Assembly: GCF_900634775.1 (NCBI RefSeq)
Contig: NC_041060.1
Coordinates: 14,725,051 to 14,789,050, forward strand
Length of the DNA: 64,000 nucleotides
Direction: 5' to 3'
Origin: Gouania willdenowi
Lineage: Eukaryota
Shown: positions 10,234-37,400 of the stretch, piece after piece
How the letters are laid out: every line of letters begins with the position of its first letter
Position numbering within the stretch: position 1 is the first letter of the stretch
Made by a program: the position numbers

Positions 10234-13200
10234 TATTATTATTATTATTATTATTATATTTATTTTTTACCTGAGACATTCATGCTTTGAGTTTGCATGT
10301 TCTCCTTGTACTTACATAAATATGCTCTGGGTAAAAACATATTGTTTTTGGTCATGTAATTGGCCCTGATCGACTGACAACGTGTCTCGTCAGTTTCGGT
10401 GCTGTTATTTCGGAGGCCTGGTGCGGGCCGTGAAGGCACCACGGTGCAGATGTTACAGATGAGGGTGTGGAAGGACAAGTTCTTTAAACTGGTGGGAATG
10501 AGTGACAGTGGACGAGCTCGACTCGATTCTCTTTAGATTCACCTTAAACACACACACACACACACACACATTCACCGCGTCTTTACAGTGTCTACAAGTC
10601 TCCGGTAAGTGAGTGTTTAGTCAAAGTGTATCAAAGAGAAGTTTGACTGTCTGTTGTTGTTTGGAGGTTTGAAACGTTCAAGTGACGTGTGTTTGTGTTT
10701 ACGTGTTTCTAGTGCGCGCGTGTTTTAGCTATAGCTAGCTCTGCCATCGTCATGTGCTCATCTCAGCAATATCCATATGTCCTTATTTCTACGAATCATG
10801 TTTAAAGTTGCTGTTTTTTGTTGTTGTTTTTATCAGAGTCTGATTTATGTTTTGCTGTTTATATTAGTTTAGCTAATGTTGTGTCACTGTTCAATATATT
10901 TTAATGAAGTAAATGTGGGTCAAACATGGTGGAGCGTTTTGAAATTGGTCCCCCACATTTTCTGTTCAAAGCCTTATTAATAAATAAATAAAACGTTTTT
11001 TTTAAGCCTCCAATTTATAAATGAGGGAACATATTGTTAGGCAGTTTTTAAGCTTATGTGGTGATAAAATTAGCGTCATTATTATAATTAATAATAAATT
11101 AACATAAATTCAAACAAATCATAAAATGTATTGTATTATACCAATGGTACGGAAACGTTCTATTAAAAGTAATATTCCATCCAATATCTGTTATGTTGGC
11201 AAACTTTGGCTGCAATAATTATAATACAATATATTTATGTAAAAGTAGGGCTGGGCGATATGGCCTTTTATAAATACCGCGATATTTTTAGGCCATGTCA
11301 CGATACACGATATATATCTCCATATTTTGCATTACCCTTGAATTAACACTTTGATGCACAAAATCACACCAGTATGATGATTCTATATGTCTACATTAAA
11401 ACATTCTTGATCATACCTGCATTAATATATGCCAATTTTAAACTTCATGCAAAAAGGGGATATCACAACTAAGTCAAGTTGCACATAAACTGTATTTATT
11501 AAACAGTGAGTGGTCTCAAACATACAATTGTCAACAGAAAGTGCACGTTCGTGCAAATTGTCACAGAGACATTCAAAACAAGACATTAGTGCAGGATGCA
11601 ACTCACATGGCATTTCAAAACACAAAATTAAAGTGCACTTTTTGTACATAATGCCACTACAAATATTTTAAAAACAATAGTGCCCTTTTGTGCATGTTGT
11701 CATTAAGATGACATTTCAAAACAACACTAAATTTAAGTGCACCTTTTGTGCATAATGCCACTAAGATATTTAAAAAAAAAAAAATCCAAAAAAAAAAAAG
11801 TCCGCGAGGTTTAACGGTATGGTCATTTTCAACACCGCACAGACTACAAGCTGCGATATATCGAGTATATTCGATATATCGCCCAGCCCTATGTAAAAGC
11901 TATTTGCCAAAATAAAAATGTGGAAATGGTTTGCAGCACATGCAAGTACTTTCAATAACCAAGAAAGAAGAACAACAAGAAGAAGAAAAAAATGTGAAAA
12001 GGATTGAGAAACAAAGCAGCACTTACAAGTGAAAAGCAGATCTGAAAGTGAGGATTCTCTGAATTTGACTGGTGTGGTTTTTATCTTCATGTCTTCCTAC
12101 AGGCAGGATGGAGGCCGGCATGATGAAGCCTGAGCCAAAGAAGAGGCACAAACCAAAACCGGTGAGCATTATGCTGTGCAGCTCAACTAGATGTTATCTA
12201 GATGCTGGAAGCAGAGTTGCTGTCATGGGATGTGTTTTTTAGTTATTTGCATTTACATTCCATTGTCCAGGTGAACATCTGGGCCACAGCCTGCCATTTG
12301 AATCGCCCAAGTATACAGATAAATGGATAGCTAAGTAATATTAAGTTTGTTGTCTTCTGTTACAGACTACAGCTCCACCAAAGCCTCCAGAGGTAATTGA
12401 CACAAAACTTTTATGCGAAACTACAGAAGTTTTAAGTTCTGTGACTAAAAACTTCCTGTGTTCACAGATAAGAAGATATGACGCAGAGAGACCTGAGATA
12501 CCAGCTCCTGTGGTACCTCCTCGACCCATGGATGATGTGAGTTTCACAAGTCTTTTACTTTGTAAATAAACTATTTGCCACTGAAGCACTTAGTGCATCT
12601 TTGACATTTTGACATGATATACAATCAAATTTATCAATATTTATTTAAGTTTTCTGCTTCTTTTGAAAAATGTGTACTGTTACTTATCGCTATTCATGAC
12701 AAAGGGCTAGAAAAACCAGATGAAAAGTCACTCCGACTGGTTTTCTCTCCTGTTTTCTGTGTAGGAACTGGGTCAAACACAGTCCAGGGTGAAACGAATG
12801 GCTGCTGCAATCAATCAGGTATTTACTGGAAACGTCTTTGTCTGTCATGACAGGGATTTTAACATTGATAAAAGGGTTGGTGTGATGAAATGAAGATAAA
12901 ATTTGAAGCGATGACTATCTGGAAAAACCTCTATGTTCAATTTGTTTTTCTGTAACTTGTTTAAACTTTGTGTATTTCTGTGTGTAAACAGTGATGTATC
13001 CTAATTATATTCTTAAGATAATCATTTGAAAACCCATTGACTGTATTTTTTGGTCACCCTCCTCAACAGGCCAATGGAAACATGACGCAATACGAGACGA
13101 GATGAAAGTATCTGATACGCCTGTGCCTTCCACCTCGACCTGCTGACAGGGTGCGTTTCTGTTTTCTTAACAGCATGATAGTTTTTTAAAATTTTAGGAA

Positions 13201-13578
13201 TATGAATCCTCAGCCAGTGGAGCAAAGCAGCTCGAGGTGTCATGTTTCTCTGTTGTTCCACAAATCCTTTGTTACGTTCCTGACAATGGCCACGGTTACA
13301 TGATGTTTTTTAATTCGGAATTTAGTTATTCCAAATTAAATCATTCAGAATTGAAGTGTTCTGCTTCGTGTTTACATGGAAAACCGGTTTACTCGGCTCT
13401 AAGTAATACAGCTTTAGGTTAAATTAGCATTAGGAATTACGTGTTTACAAGGTCAGGTTAAGAGGAATTACTTTTATTCTGCTTTAAAGAGGAATTAAAG
13501 CTCCATGTAAACGTGGCCAATCTTGAATCCACAACTAGATTACCCAACTCTGGATTGCAGAGACTGAAGGCACACACA

Positions 13579-34400: not shown

Positions 34401-37400
34401 CACTCCCATTTCTGCCTCTTCTCCATCAAATTTCAATGTCTTTTCTCCACATTTTTTTCCATTCTGCACTTATAAACCCTTTCCAACACTTTTCCCACCA
34501 AATGTCACATATGTTGAACCATCATTGTCACTTTTAACCTCTTTTCACCACATTTAATGCTTATTTTTGCAAATTTAACCAGATTTCGGATTTGTCATGC
34601 CCATTATTTGCCAGTGATTGTTCCAATATTGACATTTTGAGCCCTTTTTACCATTTTTTTCTGTTGTTTATCACAGATTCATAGAACAATGGACCATTAT
34701 TTTGCTGACTTTATGGATGGGCCCCAAATACATCTCCCCTTTATTCTCCCTTTATAGATATAGATGTGATAACTGGTATCTGATGACATTTCACTAACTA
34801 GACATTTCCAGGACTGTGTTGACACTCTTTTCCCATCTGTTGCAGGAAGGTATGGATACTCTTCAGGGGTGGGATTTTGAAAAATTCTCCCAGAGCGCTG
34901 CCAGTAAGGCCATGAACCACAACATCAAACACGTGATGAAGGAGGGAGGCCGCGCTGGAAAAGCCCTGATGATCAACACGGACAAGCTCATCAGCACGGT
35001 GCAGGTTTTAGGCGCTGCGGGTGGCGTCGCCAAAGCCGCTCAGGCCATCAGCGTCACCACGGGCGTCATGTCCGCACTCTTTCTGGCTCTGGATATATTT
35101 TTCCTTGCCAAAGACTCGCACAAGCTCCGCAAAGGGGCCAAAACCAAATTTGCCTCAAAGATCAGAGACGTGTGTAAAGACCTCCAGGACGGCCTGTTGG
35201 AGCTGAACAAGGTGAAGACGCAGCTGCAGAAAACAATGGACGGCATCGAGGTGGAGGAGTTTGAGGAGTTTGAAGAGGTCGAGGTTGAGGTGGAAGACGA
35301 CCTCGAGTCCGACCCGAAGAAGCTGGCTGAGTTGGAGCAGGAGCTCGACCTCCTGGAGGAGAAACTGGACAAGAAGCTGGAGGAGCAGCAGAAAAAGGAA
35401 ATGGAGCTAAAAGCTAAGGAGGAAAAAGAAAAGAGGGAGGAGGAGGAGGAGAATGATAAAAAAGAGAATGACAAAGGTGATTCTGTGTCTCTGAGTGCTG
35501 ATGAAGAAGAGAAGAAACCTCTCAAAGAGGAAGATCCCAAAGAATTGCTTCTAAAAGGCAGCAAGAAAGAGAAAGAAACGGAAAACTGGAAAACATCTGG
35601 GAAACTGCAAATTAACCAAGAGAAAAAGGAGAGCACTGTGTGGCATCTAGCAGAGGAAGTGGAAAAAGAGCAGCAGGAGGTGAAGAGCACATCAAGAGAT
35701 TCAAAGCGTCTGAAAGCTCAGAGTGAGTTGGTTAAAACTGAGAAGAAGAGTGCGAGTTGGGAGAGCAGCAGGGATGAGGATGGAGGGTTGATGCCGGAAT
35801 GGAAATCTGTAAATACAGGGAGAGCGTCTGAGAACAGGAGCAGTAGGAGCAGCAGGGAGGAGGATGGAGGAGGAGGAGGACTGAAGCCTGAATGGAATTC
35901 TGTTCACACACAGAGAGAAACAGAGAGCAGGAGCACAAGGAGGCACAGCAGCAGGAGCAGCAGGGAGGACGAAGGAGAGTTCAGGCCTAAAGGGACGTCA
36001 ATGAACACAGAAAGAGAATCAGAAAGCAGGAGCACGAGGAGGCACAGCAGCAGGAGTGACAGGGAGGCCGAGAAAAGAGGCAAACAGGAAGTCAGGCAAA
36101 GTGAGGAGGAGAAAAGGAGCCATTATCACCACCACCACCACCACAGTGACAGGAGCGAGAGTTGGAGGAGGAGGAGACAGGATGAGGAGAGAGCAACTGA
36201 TCACGCATGGAAAGATAAAAAGACAGCAAAAGACGAGCACAGAGAGTGGGACAAAGAAAGCCGGGCGAGCAGGGTGGAGAGCACCAAGAAGAGGGTTGAG
36301 GAAGAGGAGAAGAGCAGGGAGCACAGGGACAGTCGGAAGAGAGGAAGCGAGAGAGACAGCGAGCATCATCATCATCATCACAGTCAGAGAGGTTCACGAC
36401 TTCGCTCCGACCCTTTGCTGGAAGACGGACTCAACATTTAGCACCAAAACTATCAGATTCTGTCAAACAGGACCTTGTTCACTGTGAGAGTTGGAACATC
36501 AAGCAGGTCAAAGCTGTTAATCACAGAGAACTCTACTAAACACTGGTTACAGAGAAGAAAAGCTCTCCCCAACATCCTGGTTTTACATTATATACTGACT
36601 GAGAATTTAGTCTCAGCTTAAAAGAGAAACAGGAAAGCTATAGAAAAGATGCACCTTAAAATAAAAACATCAGTACCAGCAGCTGGACTATATGACCGTA
36701 TGTTTACTGAAACATGGAAAGGAAATTTCTTGTTTAAAAAAAAAAAAAAAACAAAACTAACATTTTATCCTGTTTCACATAAAATTTGTGGAATTTTCTT
36801 GTTTCTGGGAGTGTGGATTAAATGCTAGAATTTGTATTTCTTACATTTTCTACTCTGTGGACTTTTTGGAGACACAGTTAACTTTTATTTGCCTTTACCA
36901 CTACATGTTTGATGTTTTATATTGATATTAACACTGGAAATACACTTTTAGTTTACATTGGTGCTGGGGTTTTTCTTTTAAATAATAAATTATTTAGTGT
37001 TCCATGCAGAGTTTTTGTCTCATTTCTAAGCATTTAGGGATTTCATACACTTGATATATATTTATGACTGGTTATTATCACTAGATGGCAGTAAAGAGCC
37101 AAACAAGTATTACGAGTCAAACACATTTAACTGCAACCAATAGTGTCATAGATGAAGATTTACCTCTTTTACATGTTCACAGTGAATCACAGGTGAGGAA
37201 AAAGGCAAATTAGTACATTGTGGACTCAAAGAACAAGATCATTTGAAATCATTTCTACTGACATTTCAACGTGCAACACTTTATTCCACTCAATTCATGC
37301 CATTGTATTATTTTCAAAGGACCACTTCTGAATCATTTCATCTGAAATCATAATGAAATTACCCTTTTTTTTTTTTTTTTTTTTTTTTTTTACTCCATCA

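What the first reader, a model, noticed from the sequence alone, without database searches (positions are those of the whole stretch)
12108..36441. APOL-domain gene with an N-terminal array of ~40 alternating, symmetric phase-0 mini-exons
A confident apolipoprotein-L domain (33529-33943 and 34846-35220) is preceded on the same strand by a ~20-kb field of 54-75-nt exons. They alternate an EKGG[IVLF]FSG[LM]FKK[ST]PK type with a DxExLSASxDSLSENSSK type, and all are multiples of 3 with AG/GT junctions, so any subset can be skipped or repeated without breaking frame. The three bridging exons (32995, 33149, 33336) are conserved in the degenerate upstream paralog at 3952-4555, which argues they belong to the APOL gene. 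Known APOLs are compact 2-6-exon genes, and I know of no APOL with such a repeat arm. The F-S-G-x-F-K-K-S-P-K units resemble polybasic amphipathic membrane-binding segments of the MARCKS effector-domain type. Their S/T-P-K sites also fit proline-directed kinase motifs, so the arm may be a regulated membrane-tethering arm for a pore-forming APOL module. Physical linkage of the array and the APOL exons into one transcript is an inference
Basis: partly seen in the sequence, partly recalled or inferred. Interest (0 to 1): 0.8.

Follow-up and report, generated by a model that had tools for sequence, protein, structure and literature searches.

The report
Clingfish apold1a gene with mini-exon arm
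This is the already-annotated clingfish copy of the fish gene apold1a, in which 39 tiny in-frame exons encode a long, floppy repeat arm in front of a membrane-inserting ApoL domain. The architecture is real and shared by bony fishes from eels to perch-like fishes, but what the arm does has not been studied.

Summary
On the + strand one open reading frame runs from ATG 12108 to the stop at 36439-36441 through 43 coding exons (1544 aa). The first 39 exons are all phase 0 and multiples of 3 (27-105 nt, median 66) with AG/GT borders. Twenty-seven are A-type (EKGGxFSGxFKKxPK) or B-type (ELSASxDSLSEN), mostly alternating. Pfam ApoL scores 110.9 bits against a cut-off of 25.9.

From exon 17498 to the stop, the window is 100% identical over 1411 aa to RefSeq 'uncharacterized protein LOC114479162 isoform X6' of Gouania willdenowi. 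More than 100 teleost models of 1000-1740 aa share the architecture, under names such as apold1a, si:rp71-1g18.13 and 'titin homolog'. A trout mRNA contig joins arm, bridge and ApoL.

The MARCKS comparison is not supported. The arm is acidic overall (net -16, pI 5.45), gives no Pfam hit, and is predicted disordered.

No paper in the library describes the arm. My best reading is a cytosolic, disordered, alternatively spliced polyampholyte arm on a hairpin-anchored APOLD1-type protein. Its function is inferred only.

The parts
12108..12161 (+). Coding exon 1 (start codon): MEAGMMKPEPKKRHKPKP. The exon itself begins at 12103 after an acceptor, so a 5'UTR exon lies upstream.
   Evidence: Matches the conserved N-terminus MEACMMKPEVKKKPKP of orthologues. 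Donor is GTGAGC.
12366..12392 (+). Exon 2, 27 nt, phase 0: TTAPPKPPE
   Evidence: AG/GT borders. Homologous to the PKPPPKP segment of orthologues.
12468..12536 (+). Exon 3, 69 nt, phase 0: IRRYDAERPEIPAPVVPPRPMDD. Contains a PxxPxR proline motif.
   Evidence: tblastn to P0001, P0007 and P0016. AG/GT borders.
12765..12818 (+). Exon 4, 54 nt, phase 0: ELGQTQSRVKRMAAAINQ
   Evidence: AG/GT borders. I aligned it by eye to AELSKTQYRTKK of P0005; no alignment tool was run on this.
13695..13760 (+). Exon 5, 66 nt, phase 0: KSKQNDQPEAATVPKDEAEFMQ
   Evidence: tblastn to P0005. AG/GT borders.
13843..13907 (+). Alternative or damaged A-like exon: (D)EAGIGTGMFRKSQKEKTPKFK. The acceptor AG lies one base late for phase 0. 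RefSeq isoform X6 starts translation at the Met inside it.
   Evidence: Sequence. P0337 begins MFRKSQKEKTPKFK and then joins exon 17498.
16733..16810 (+). Exon 6, 78 nt, phase 0: TYKTHNFEEEEKTDDIPVKQAASSKP. Skipped in isoform X6.
   Evidence: tblastn to P0001 and P0005. AG/GT borders. Absent from P0337.
16902..16952 (+). Exon 7, 51 nt, phase 0, A-like: GVLKGVMKGLQLKSSPK. Skipped in isoform X6.
   Evidence: 93% identical to P0001 LKGVMKGLQIKSSPK. AG/GT borders.
17498..17602 (+). Exon 8, 105 nt, phase 0: ASGEPNPEASTEETRSEKEQPADKNKHEKNAEPKR
   Evidence: Identical in RefSeq P0337. AG/GT borders.
18150..18218 (+). Exon 9, A-type: EKGKFADMFRKAPKEKSSSPALT
   Evidence: Identical in P0337. Phase 0 with AG/GT borders.
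18313..18378 (+). Exon 10, acidic: VTKAESDEEDAQEEEKTSGQTR
   Evidence: Identical in P0337. AG/GT borders.
20384..20449 (+). Exon 11, B-type: ENLKEESKLSASSDSLSEHSSK
20599..20670 (+). Exon 12, A-type: EKGGIFSGLFKKSPKPAEIAQTDQ
20771..20836 (+). Exon 13, B-type: DEQSLHGDLSASNDSLSENSSK
20922..20990 (+). Exon 14, A-type: EKGFFSGILRKSPKTPGEGTSGQ
23267..23332 (+). Exon 15, B-type: DKESLQAETSASNDNLTENSTK
23422..23493 (+). Exon 16, A-type: EKGGVFSAMFRKTPKLSEGNQMDE
23725..23784 (+). Exon 17, B-type: AAEPLKGELSASTDSLSENK
23910..23966 (+). Exon 18, A-type: EKGGLFSGLLKKTPKTTGE
25457..25516 (+). Exon 19, B-type: DVSSDTELTASNDSLSDNKQ
25649..25723 (+). Exon 20, A-type: EKSGGLFSGLLKKTPKASGERSKSP
26647..26709 (+). 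Exon 21, B-type: DRETQKELSASNDSLSENSSK. First exon of a recently duplicated three-exon block.
26811..26879 (+). Exon 22, A-type: EKNIFSNIFKRPHKSTESPTVEK
26960..27022 (+). Exon 23, B-variant: DSEESCDKKLSGSSENITDPK
27417..27479 (+). Exon 24, B-type: DRETQKKLSASNDSLSENSSK. Duplicate of exon 21.
27570..27638 (+). Exon 25, A-type: EKNIFSNIFKRPQKPTESPSAEK. Duplicate of exon 22.
27723..27785 (+). Exon 26, B-variant: DSEESCDKKLSRSSENITDPK. Duplicate of exon 23.
28882..28950 (+). Exon 27, A-variant: EKKESFAEMFKRSASIEFDFFDE
29036..29104 (+). Exon 28, A-type: DKGGLFSGLKKAPKVSGEEDGEE
29192..29245 (+). Exon 29, B-type: DKELSASTDSLTENSNTK
29323..29376 (+). Exon 30, A-type: EKNIFSGMFKKPPKPADE
29492..29545 (+). 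Exon 31, B-variant: ESGEGNKLSVSCENLVTK. I missed this exon; it was recovered from the RefSeq model.
   Evidence: Present in P0337. Phase 0 with AG/GT borders.
29624..29695 (+). Exon 32, A-type: EKTGGFAGIFKKSPKPYPRFATNQ
29850..29912 (+). Exon 33, B-type: DPLSDSNQLSDSLDSLTEIGE
30244..30303 (+). Exon 34, B-variant: EAISAELLSSNENLEAASPE. Recovered from the RefSeq model.
30428..30490 (+). Exon 35, last A-type: PEKKSVFAGLFRRTPKNEEPQ
30864..30935 (+). Exon 36, polybasic: DSEEAEAPRGGRLRRKRTIKKKQR (net +6)
   Evidence: Conserved in orthologues.
31040..31102 (+). Exon 37, basic and hydrophobic: VVSFRVKQTVPRIPKRNLALQ (net +5)
31214..31285 (+). Exon 38, acidic: SSDKLPEIEEAVEALELEDLNPVQ
32995..33069 (+). 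Exon 39, first bridging exon and last symmetric phase-0 exon: ESTVEVQPVEMAAFPTEENPVESNP
33149..33188 (+). Exon 40, bridging, 40 nt (phase 0>1): EHQELMEWWKSVK(G). Part of a predicted helix with pLDDT 78-91.
33337..33388 (+). Exon 41, bridging, 52 nt (phase 1>2): (G)WTEWNETTAFEEDDEQ(M)
33529..33943 (+). Exon 42, first half of the ApoL domain, including the 53-aa hydrophobic hairpin (protein residues 924-976)
   Evidence: Pfam PF05461. Hydropathy profile. 87% identical to P0015.
34846..36441 (+). Exon 43: second half of the ApoL domain (to about 35220), then a 399-aa charged tail with a 93-99-nt internal repeat (35772-36071), ending ...LLEDGLNI and the stop at 36439-36441

Best explanation
The interval 12108-36441 is one protein-coding gene. 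It is the Gouania willdenowi (clingfish) orthologue of teleost apold1a (si:rp71-1g18.13), annotated in RefSeq as LOC114479162.

Shown:
- 43 coding exons give one ORF of up to 1544 aa.
- The first 39 exons are symmetric phase-0 cassettes. They encode an arm of about 840 aa with no hydrophobic segment and no signal peptide, which is predicted disordered.
- Three bridging exons and two large exons encode a helical linker (LMEWW...W.EWNE), an APOLD1-type ApoL domain with a hydrophobic hairpin, and a 399-aa charged tail.
- The arm grew by tandem duplication of exon blocks. One B-A-B' block is a recent duplicate.
- Orthologues, and this species' own annotated isoform, include or skip whole cassettes without breaking frame.

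Inferred:
- The hairpin anchors the protein in a membrane with both ends in the cytosol, so the arm is cytosolic.
- The arm is a blocky polyampholyte. Short basic-aromatic A units (GGxFSGxFKK-S/T-PK, hydrophobic moment 0.5-0.77) alternate with acidic, serine-rich B units (ELSASxDSLSEN).
- The arm most likely acts as a multivalent, low-affinity interaction arm for the membrane surface, the cell cortex or protein partners. Its reach and valency would be set by alternative splicing and its charge by serine phosphorylation. In that way it would position or regulate the membrane-inserted ApoL module.

I put the gene structure and identity at about 0.95. I put the functional reading at about 0.3.
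For: - One continuous ORF through 43 exons; 39 consecutive phase-0, multiple-of-3 exons with AG/GT borders.
- 18 phase-0 mini-exon candidates on the + strand against 2 on the - strand with the same filter.
- 100% identity over 1411 aa (36 exons) to RefSeq LOC114479162 isoform X6 of G. willdenowi.
- Full-length arm-plus-ApoL models in Solea, Osmerus, Takifugu, Oncorhynchus, Sardina, Anguilla, Oryzias and others, many named apold1a or si:rp71-1g18.13.
- An intronless 4743-nt Logan contig carries arm, bridge, ApoL and tail together.
- Isoforms differ by whole in-frame blocks within the arm.
- Purifying selection on the exons: in the duplicated block, exons are 94.4% identical with no indels, while introns are 78.8% identical with 24 gap columns (Fisher p 1e-10).
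- Motif positions that my search pattern left free are still conserved across 23 species.
- Pfam ApoL at 110.9 bits. Hydrophobic segments occur only at residues 924-978 and 1074-1105; the maximum hydropathy in the first 840 aa is 0.32 and the N-terminus is hydrophilic.
- AlphaFold2 on the orthologue P0028 gives pLDDT 32-43 for the arm and 78-91 for the bridge helices.
- Charge pattern: A exons +1.6, B exons -2.7 on average.
Against: - I saw no RNA data for this species. RefSeq models are predictions, and isoform X6 does not include the 12108 start codon. The maximal 43-exon isoform is therefore conceptual.
- Several annotations in other species split the locus into an arm-only protein (P0001, P0007, P0016, P0186) and short ApoL-only proteins starting at MAAYPTE (P0029, P0036). 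Internal promoters or 3' ends, and shorter products, are therefore likely.
- Nothing tests the functional part. Pfam finds no family in the arm. AlphaFold2 predicts only two short, low-confidence helices in the arm and none across most A units. The arm is net acidic, which argues against simple electrostatic binding to acidic membranes.
- Cytosolic topology is assumed from the absence of a signal peptide and from what is proposed for mammalian APOLD1.
Confidence: 0.75

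Rival explanations
1. Two adjacent genes. 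An arm-only gene (12108 to about 31300) would lie next to a compact apold1a gene starting near 32995, and the joined models would be read-through or annotation artefacts.
For: Some pipelines annotate arm-only proteins: P0001 'nucleolar protein dao-5-like', P0016, and P0186 (866 aa, no ApoL). Others annotate short ApoL proteins beginning MAAYPTE or with a private first exon MSECDSKHLDE: P0027, P0029, P0036. In the upstream paralogue the arm and bridge exons survive while the ApoL exon has decayed.
Against: The same-species RefSeq model joins 31 arm exons (17498 through 32995-33069) to the ApoL exons. P0007 runs from the conserved start codon into the ESTVEV bridging exon. More than 100 full-length models exist. 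An mRNA contig spans arm and ApoL. The frame stays open across all 43 exons. Separate shorter transcripts may well coexist with the long one, but they do not make this two genes.
Confidence: 0.05
2. The A units would be MARCKS effector-domain-like polybasic membrane anchors, switched off by proline-directed or PKC-type phosphorylation, tethering a pore-forming APOL module.
For: The A cores (F-S-G-x-F-K-K-S/T-P-K) combine two aromatic or hydrophobic pairs with 3-4 lysines or arginines. Their 11-residue hydrophobic moments are 0.5-0.77. The arm has 13 S/T-P sites, 8 of them S/T-P-K.
Against: Average net charge per A exon is only +1.6. B exons average -2.7, and the arm is -16 with pI 5.45. The MARCKS effector domain is about +13 in 25 residues (my own knowledge). 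Pfam gives no MARCKS or other hit. The only truly polybasic stretch is exons 36-37 (+11), which is not a repeat unit. A recent review argues that APOLD1-type domains are unlikely to form pores (PMC11726835).
Confidence: 0.12
3. The arm is an array of short linear motifs that recruit specific protein partners, rather than lipid. Candidates are an actin-monomer-binding LKKT-like motif in 'GLLKKTPK', SH3 ligands in PVVPPRP, and, in the paralogues, NPF motifs for EH-domain endocytic proteins.
For: Motif positions are conserved across teleosts. The PxxPxR motif in exon 3 is conserved in apold1a and apold1b N-termini. The apold1b and MDRY-type paralogues carry repeated KVNPFKS or NPFMPR units, including window exon 1197-1247. 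Loss of mammalian APOLD1 disturbs junctions and cytoskeletal architecture (PMC9973481, title and abstract).
Against: Pfam finds no WH2 or other motif family. The spacing of G-L-LKKT differs from canonical WH2 (my own knowledge). apold1a itself has no NPF motif. No interaction data exist.
Confidence: 0.2
4. The arm is largely neutral, expandable, low-complexity filler with no specific function, produced by exon-duplication drift and tolerated because every exon is symmetric.
For: Copy number varies widely between species: 4-16 A and 3-12 B units. Two N-terminal exons have decayed in this genome without breaking the frame. Isoforms skip units freely.
Against: The array is retained from eels and tarpons to percomorphs. 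The motifs are sharply conserved. Duplicated exons are far better conserved than their introns. Apart from one recent block, the units share no DNA-level similarity, so they are old and maintained at the protein level.
Confidence: 0.08

Closest known systems
Teleost apold1a (si:rp71-1g18.13) predicted proteins, e.g. G. willdenowi LOC114479162, Osmerus eperlanus apold1a X1-X7, Solea senegalensis LOC122772061, Oncorhynchus mykiss LOC110508496
   Same: This is the same gene. The window is 100% identical to the clingfish model over 36 exons. Orthologues share the start MEACMMKPE, the A/B array, the polybasic RRKRTIKKK-VVSFRVK segment, the ESTVEVQPVEMAAYPTE and LMEWW bridge, the ApoL domain, the charged tail and the C-terminal DGLxI.
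   Different: Nothing essential differs. Unit number varies by species and isoform. These are database predictions with uninformative names such as 'titin homolog', 'myb-like protein X' and 'futsch'. No paper in the library describes them.
Mammalian APOLD1 / VERGE
   Same: It has an ApoL-family domain with a flexible double-helix hydrophobic hairpin. It has no signal peptide (my own knowledge). It is an intracellular membrane protein of endothelial junctions and Weibel-Palade bodies (PMC9973481, PMC11726835). Source databases name the fish gene as its co-orthologue.
   Different: Mammalian APOLD1 is a small protein of about 279 aa from a compact gene (my own knowledge), with no repeat arm and no long charged tail. 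One evolutionary study traces APOLD1 only to amniotes (PMC8557400). I did not test orthology by synteny or by a tree.
Teleost paralogues with arms: apold1b (si:cabz01007802.1), the MDRY-type gene ('titin homolog' P0215, P0013) and si:cabz01007807.1 (P0232)
   Same: All have a long N-terminal disordered arm followed by an LMxWW bridge and an ApoL domain. In apold1b, G-h-h-x-G-h-h-[KQ]-K units (PGMLKGVMQKVNPFKS) alternate with SIHSDLSSSAGSLAEN units, which points to a common ancestral A/B arm.
   Different: Their units carry NPF motifs that apold1a lacks. The MDRY-type copy just upstream in this window has a frameshifted ApoL exon.
Genes whose repetitive or disordered regions are built from uniform-phase mini-exons: tropoelastin (alternating hydrophobic and cross-linking exons), titin PEVK exons, fibrillar collagen 54-bp exons
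   Same: They share many short exons of one phase and of lengths divisible by 3, two alternating exon classes (tropoelastin), growth by tandem exon duplication, and extensive cassette splicing without frame loss. This comparison rests on my own knowledge of those genes.
   Different: There is no sequence relationship. Those are extracellular-matrix or sarcomeric spring proteins. Here the array is a cytosolic extension of a membrane-hairpin protein.
MARCKS effector domain
   Same: It shares a mix of Phe, Ser, Gly and Lys in a short unstructured segment with phosphorylatable serines.
   Different: Charge density is far lower (+1.6 per exon) and is neutralised by the acidic B units. Pfam gives no match, and the domain context is unrelated.

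Membership tests
Apolipoprotein L family (Pfam PF05461) | Match to the ApoL profile above the gathering score | tested here: met
   110.9 bits against a cut-off of 25.9, E 1.1e-31, profile positions 41-297 of 298.
Apolipoprotein L family (Pfam PF05461) | Hydrophobic double-helix hairpin rich in Gly/Ala/Ser/Thr/Ile/Val, plus a second hydrophobic helix | tested here: met
   Kyte-Doolittle segments at residues 924-978 (53-55 aa) and 1074-1105, and none elsewhere. The feature is as described for APOLs and APOLD1 in PMC11726835.
Teleost apold1a (si:rp71-1g18.13) orthologue group | Best matches are proteins named apold1a or si:rp71-1g18.13, with collinear architecture over the full length | tested here: met
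   Identical over 1411 aa (36 exons) to G. willdenowi LOC114479162 X6. 45-58% identical over 72-100% of the length to apold1a models of Osmerus, Sardina, Alosa, Gasterosteus and others.
Teleost apold1a (si:rp71-1g18.13) orthologue group | Conserved synteny with tetrapod APOLD1, or a gene tree placing it with APOLD1 | not tested
   The window holds only a tandem paralogue and a retroviral element as neighbours. I built no tree with tetrapod sequences.
Symmetric cassette-exon arrays (tropoelastin / PEVK type gene architecture) | All array exons share one phase and are multiples of 3 | tested here: met
   39 of 39 exons are phase 0, 27-105 nt, with AG/GT borders.
Symmetric cassette-exon arrays (tropoelastin / PEVK type gene architecture) | Exons are actually skipped or included in transcripts | tested here: inconclusive
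   Annotated isoforms differ by whole units in Osmerus and Nothobranchius. Clingfish X6 skips exons 16733 and 16902. These are gene models; I examined no reads.
MARCKS effector domain | Profile match to the MARCKS family | tested here: not met
   No Pfam family at E<=10 in the 837-aa arm or in a two-unit fragment, apart from a chance PHAX match at 14 bits.
MARCKS effector domain | Dense polybasic cluster (about +12 to +13 in 25 residues) giving net electrostatic attraction to acidic lipid | tested here: not met
   A exons average +1.6 and the arm is net -16 with pI 5.45.
WH2 / beta-thymosin actin-binding motif | Profile match, or an amphipathic helix followed by LKKT/V at canonical spacing | tested here: not met
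   No Pfam hit. LLKKTPK occurs in only two exons of this gene, 23910 and 25649.

The most novel reading that the evidence does not exclude
The A/B arm is an autonomous, teleost-wide protein module. It would be a phospho-tunable, multivalent polyampholyte that binds the membrane surface or cell cortex, or that self-associates into condensates. It would set where and when ApoL-hairpin proteins act, and it could work without an ApoL domain. That last point is suggested by the upstream paralogue, whose arm and bridge exons are intact while its ApoL exon has decayed, and by arm-only models in other species. This would make fish apold1 genes a tractable entry point to the poorly understood cell biology of APOLD1.
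Probability: 0.3. Interest if true: 0.55.

Novelty: already known. Interest (0 to 1): 0.3.

Why it matters
The APOLD1 literature treats the protein as a small, amniote-restricted endothelial factor of unclear mechanism (PMC8557400, PMC9973465). Fish carry co-orthologues five times larger, with a conserved repeat arm, a polybasic juxta-domain segment and a conserved C-terminal DGLxI. The paralogues also carry NPF motifs, which are EH-domain ligands (my own knowledge).

These conserved motifs are testable hints about partners and regulation, in species where genetics is easy (zebrafish, medaka).

The locus is also a clean example of how a disordered region is built and tuned by symmetric cassette exons. 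For the genome scan itself, the lesson is that this is an annotated gene and not a new kind of element.

Tried and rejected
I used P0015 and P0426 instead.
- Pfam on the arm, on a two-unit fragment and on the tail gave nothing. The PHAX_RNA-bd hits (22.9 and 14.1 bits, below cut-off) are chance. The SPAR_C hit of the Albula arm protein P0002 has no single significant stretch, so I take it as compositional.
- I looked for MARCKS and WH2 membership and found neither.
- I searched for further arm exons in the large introns using ten orthologues. Only the damaged 13842 exon turned up. Yet the RefSeq model revealed two divergent B-type exons (29492, 30244) that both my homology search and my splice filter had missed. 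My exon list may therefore still be incomplete for rarely used exons.
- I first treated 13842-13907 as a normal phase-0 exon. The acceptor is in fact one base out of frame.
- An in-frame hydrophobic Met-initiated stretch lies directly upstream of 32995 (MLISFLFLL...). I considered it as a signal-peptide-bearing alternative start and dismissed it as a translated polypyrimidine tract, with no supporting evidence.
- Literature searches for apold1a/apold1b, APOLD1 with zebrafish, and apolipoprotein L with teleost found no description of the arm. Gene symbols containing ':' cannot be searched.
- I did not run fold search. The arm model is low-confidence, and the tool's own description says low-confidence models give meaningless matches.

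Full report
**What is in the sequence**

The window is teleost DNA. Extending each hit to its stop codons showed that every one sits in a short open frame. Each frame is bounded by a polypyrimidine tract plus AG on the left and GT on the right, at codon boundaries.

A deliberately crude filter (acceptor score, donor score, open frame, length divisible by 3, 36-180 nt) returned 18 candidates on the + strand of 12-33 kb, and all 18 belong to the gene. The same filter returned 2 on the - strand of that interval, and 0-6 in the other stretches of the window. The array is therefore real and far beyond chance.

**Gene model**

I mapped the non-repeat N-terminal exons using orthologues recovered with the repeat arm. 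The start codon is at 12108 (MEAGMMKPEPKKRHKPKP, against MEACMMKPEVKKKPKP in relatives). Linker exons lie at 30864, 31040 and 31214, followed by three bridging exons and two ApoL exons.

Joining them gives a single ORF. After adding two divergent B-type exons that I had missed (29492-29545 and 30244-30303), the model has 43 coding exons and 1544 aa. Exons 1-39 are all phase 0 and multiples of 3 (27-105 nt, median 66). Exons 40 and 41 are 40 and 52 nt, with phases 0>1 and 1>2, so they must travel with the ApoL exon.

Fourteen exons are A-type and thirteen are B-type. Exons 11-22 alternate strictly B-A, and the rest nearly so.

Two ancestral exons are damaged. The region around 13060-13150 reads ANGNMTQYETR*KYLIRLCLPPRPADR, with an in-frame stop and a frame change relative to orthologues. 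Exon 13842-13907 has its AG one base late.

**Identity**

The ApoL part scores 110.9 bits on Pfam PF05461, against a cut-off of 25.9. Its best matches are teleost proteins named 'apolipoprotein L domain containing 1a', si:rp71-1g18.13 or apold1a. A second group is named apold1b or si:cabz01007802.1.

Searching with the spliced protein gave as top hit 'uncharacterized protein LOC114479162 isoform X6 [Gouania willdenowi]', 1425 aa. From exon 17498 to the stop codon the window translation is identical to it over 1411 aa. The window therefore comes from that clingfish (Gobiesocidae), and RefSeq already models the arm and the ApoL domain as one gene.

Isoform X6 begins at the Met inside the out-of-frame exon 13843-13907 and skips exons 16733 and 16902. 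This fits my reading that including that exon breaks the upstream frame.

**Is it one transcript?**

Several lines of evidence beyond the same-species model say yes.

- An exhaustive HMMER search with the Coryphaenoides protein P0015 (repeats, bridge and ApoL) found dozens of proteins of 1000-1700 aa in which the ApoL domain follows several hundred residues of arm.
- Those proteins are RefSeq or GenBank models from Solea, Osmerus (apold1a X1-X7), Takifugu ('titin homolog'), Oncorhynchus, Sardina, Pungitius and others. The last search listed more than 100 such models, from eels and tarpon to percomorphs.
- A Logan contig of 4743 nt (SRR10006208), identical in its overlap to the rainbow trout orthologue P0164, encodes about ten arm units plus the bridge, the ApoL domain and the tail without interruption. 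It can therefore only be spliced mRNA.
- Osmerus isoforms differ by in-frame blocks of 45 aa (one B plus one A unit) and about 140 aa, confined to the arm.
- Nothobranchius furzeri apold1a has at least 11 transcript variants of 482-646 aa with different arm lengths.

Some annotations do give arm-only or ApoL-only proteins. Shorter products from internal starts or ends probably coexist with the long one, but a reading of two unrelated genes is not tenable.

**Selection and origin**

DNA-level repeats inside the gene are few. There is one recent duplication of a B-A-B' block (26.6-27.1 kb against 27.4-27.85 kb), a transposable-element copy shared by two introns, and a 93-99-nt repeat in the last exon.

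In the duplicated block the exons are 94.4% identical with no indels. The introns are 78.8% identical with 24 gap columns (Fisher p 1e-10).

Across 23 orthologues, 261 A and 197 B units give these consensus sequences:

- A: E-K-G-G-x-F-S-G-[MIL]-F-[KR]-[KR]-[ST]-P-K-P
- B: E-L-S-A-S-x-D-[SN]-L-S-E-N

Conservation is strong even at positions that my search pattern left free. Unit number varies from 4-16 for A and 3-12 for B. The array is therefore ancient, maintained at the protein level, and still changing by block duplication and loss.

**Properties of the arm**

- The 37-exon version is 806 aa and rich in Ser, Glu, Lys and Pro. Its net charge is -16 and its pI is 5.45.
- A exons average +1.6 net charge and B exons -2.7. 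It has 13 S/T-P sites.
- The only truly polybasic stretch is exons 36-37 (RRKRTIKKKQR-VVSFRVKQTVPRIPKR, +11). It is conserved in orthologues and paralogues.
- There is no hydrophobic segment in the first 840 residues and no signal-peptide-like N-terminus. The only hydrophobic segments are the ApoL hairpin (924-978) and residues 1074-1105.
- AlphaFold2 on the orthologue P0028 with a 63-sequence alignment gives pLDDT 32-43 for the arm and 78-91 for the LMEWW bridge helices.
- Pfam finds nothing in the arm or the tail.

**Interpretation**

What is shown is the gene structure, its identity, the cassette design, the conservation and the predicted disorder.

What is inferred is the following. The hairpin would anchor the protein with a cytosolic arm. 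The arm would then be a blocky polyampholyte in which basic-aromatic A units are interaction 'stickers' and acidic, serine-rich B units are phosphorylatable 'spacers'. Splicing would set the number of units.

The 'pore-forming' label does not fit an APOLD1-type domain according to a recent review (PMC11726835).

A motif-array reading, with protein partners rather than lipid, is a serious rival. Exon 3 carries a conserved PxxPxR motif. The paralogues carry repeated NPF units. Loss of mammalian APOLD1 perturbs junctions, cytoskeleton and Weibel-Palade bodies (PMC9973481).

**Surroundings**

Upstream, the window holds the 3' end of a tandem paralogue of the 'MDRY' type. Its arm exons include 1197-1247 (PKVRKVKKHNPFMPRVK), its bridge exons are 3949-4564, and its ApoL exon at 5734-6180 needs three frame changes to be read. 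In other species this paralogue is modelled either with an ApoL domain (P0215) or ending right after the bridge (P0013, P0014). This suggests the arm can function on its own.

Downstream, at 48.5-54.6 kb, lies a gammaretrovirus-like element flanked by direct repeats of about 460 bp that look like LTRs.

**Novelty**

The locus is an annotated gene, and its architecture is visible in many public protein models. It is therefore already known as sequence.

I found no paper that mentions apold1a or apold1b or that describes the arm. One evolutionary study traces APOLD1 only to amniotes (PMC8557400). The biology is thus unexplored, which gives the finding modest rather than high interest.

Noticed in passing
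window 580-6690 (+): This is the 3' end of a tandem paralogue of the 'MDRY' arm family. It has phase-0 arm exons (e.g. 1197-1247 PKVRKVKKHNPFMPRVK with an NPF motif, and 1742-1795) and bridge exons at 3949-4035, 4126-4167 and 4502-4555. Its first ApoL exon (5734-6180) needs three frame changes to be read, so that domain looks pseudogenised while the arm and bridge exons look intact. The second ApoL exon (about 6270-6690) is still open.
   Followed up: partly
window 13060-13150 and 13842-13907 (+): Two ancestral N-terminal exons of the gene are damaged. One has an in-frame TGA and a frameshift relative to orthologues. The other has its acceptor AG one base out of frame. RefSeq isoform X6 starts at the Met inside the second one.
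   Followed up: partly
window 30864-31102 (+): A conserved polybasic, hydrophobic segment (RRKRTIKKKQR-VVSFRVKQTVPRIPKR, net +11) lies just before the acidic linker and bridge. It is also present in apold1b and in cyprinid apold1a. It could be a membrane-proximal anchor, a nuclear localisation signal or a basophilic-kinase site. It resembles MARCKS more than the repeat units do.
   Followed up: no
window 36415-36438 (+): The protein ends ...LLEDGLNI. Orthologues end in DGLYI, DGLDI or GGLNI, so this is a conserved C-terminal motif that could be a PDZ-type ligand.
   Followed up: no
window 12468-12536 (+): Exon 3 carries PAPVVPPRP, a PxxPxR proline motif (SH3 class II type). It is conserved at the N-terminus of both apold1a and apold1b proteins.
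   Followed up: no
window 35772-36071 (+): Three copies of a 93-99-nt repeat lie inside the last coding exon, in the charged tail (..EDGGL.PEW.SVNT..ESRSTRRHSSRS..). Two His6 runs follow further downstream.
   Followed up: no
window 16124-16426 and 32564-32875: Copies of the same interspersed repeat, 86-92% identical, sit in two different introns of the gene.
   Followed up: no
window 48503-54622 (+): This is a gammaretrovirus-like endogenous element. Direct repeats of about 460 bp lie at about 48503 and 53907 and look like LTRs. It has a gag-like ORF (49407-50186), an integrase (rve plus MLV IN C-terminal domain, 50422-51570) and an envelope ORF (TLV_coat, 51557-53434). I saw no reverse-transcriptase ORF. 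A perfect 140-bp tandem duplication lies at 49156-49438.
   Followed up: partly
window 38266-38907 (+): This is a 213-aa open frame with a charged, coiled-coil-like sequence and no Pfam match. It may be an exon of a downstream gene or may be chance.
   Followed up: no
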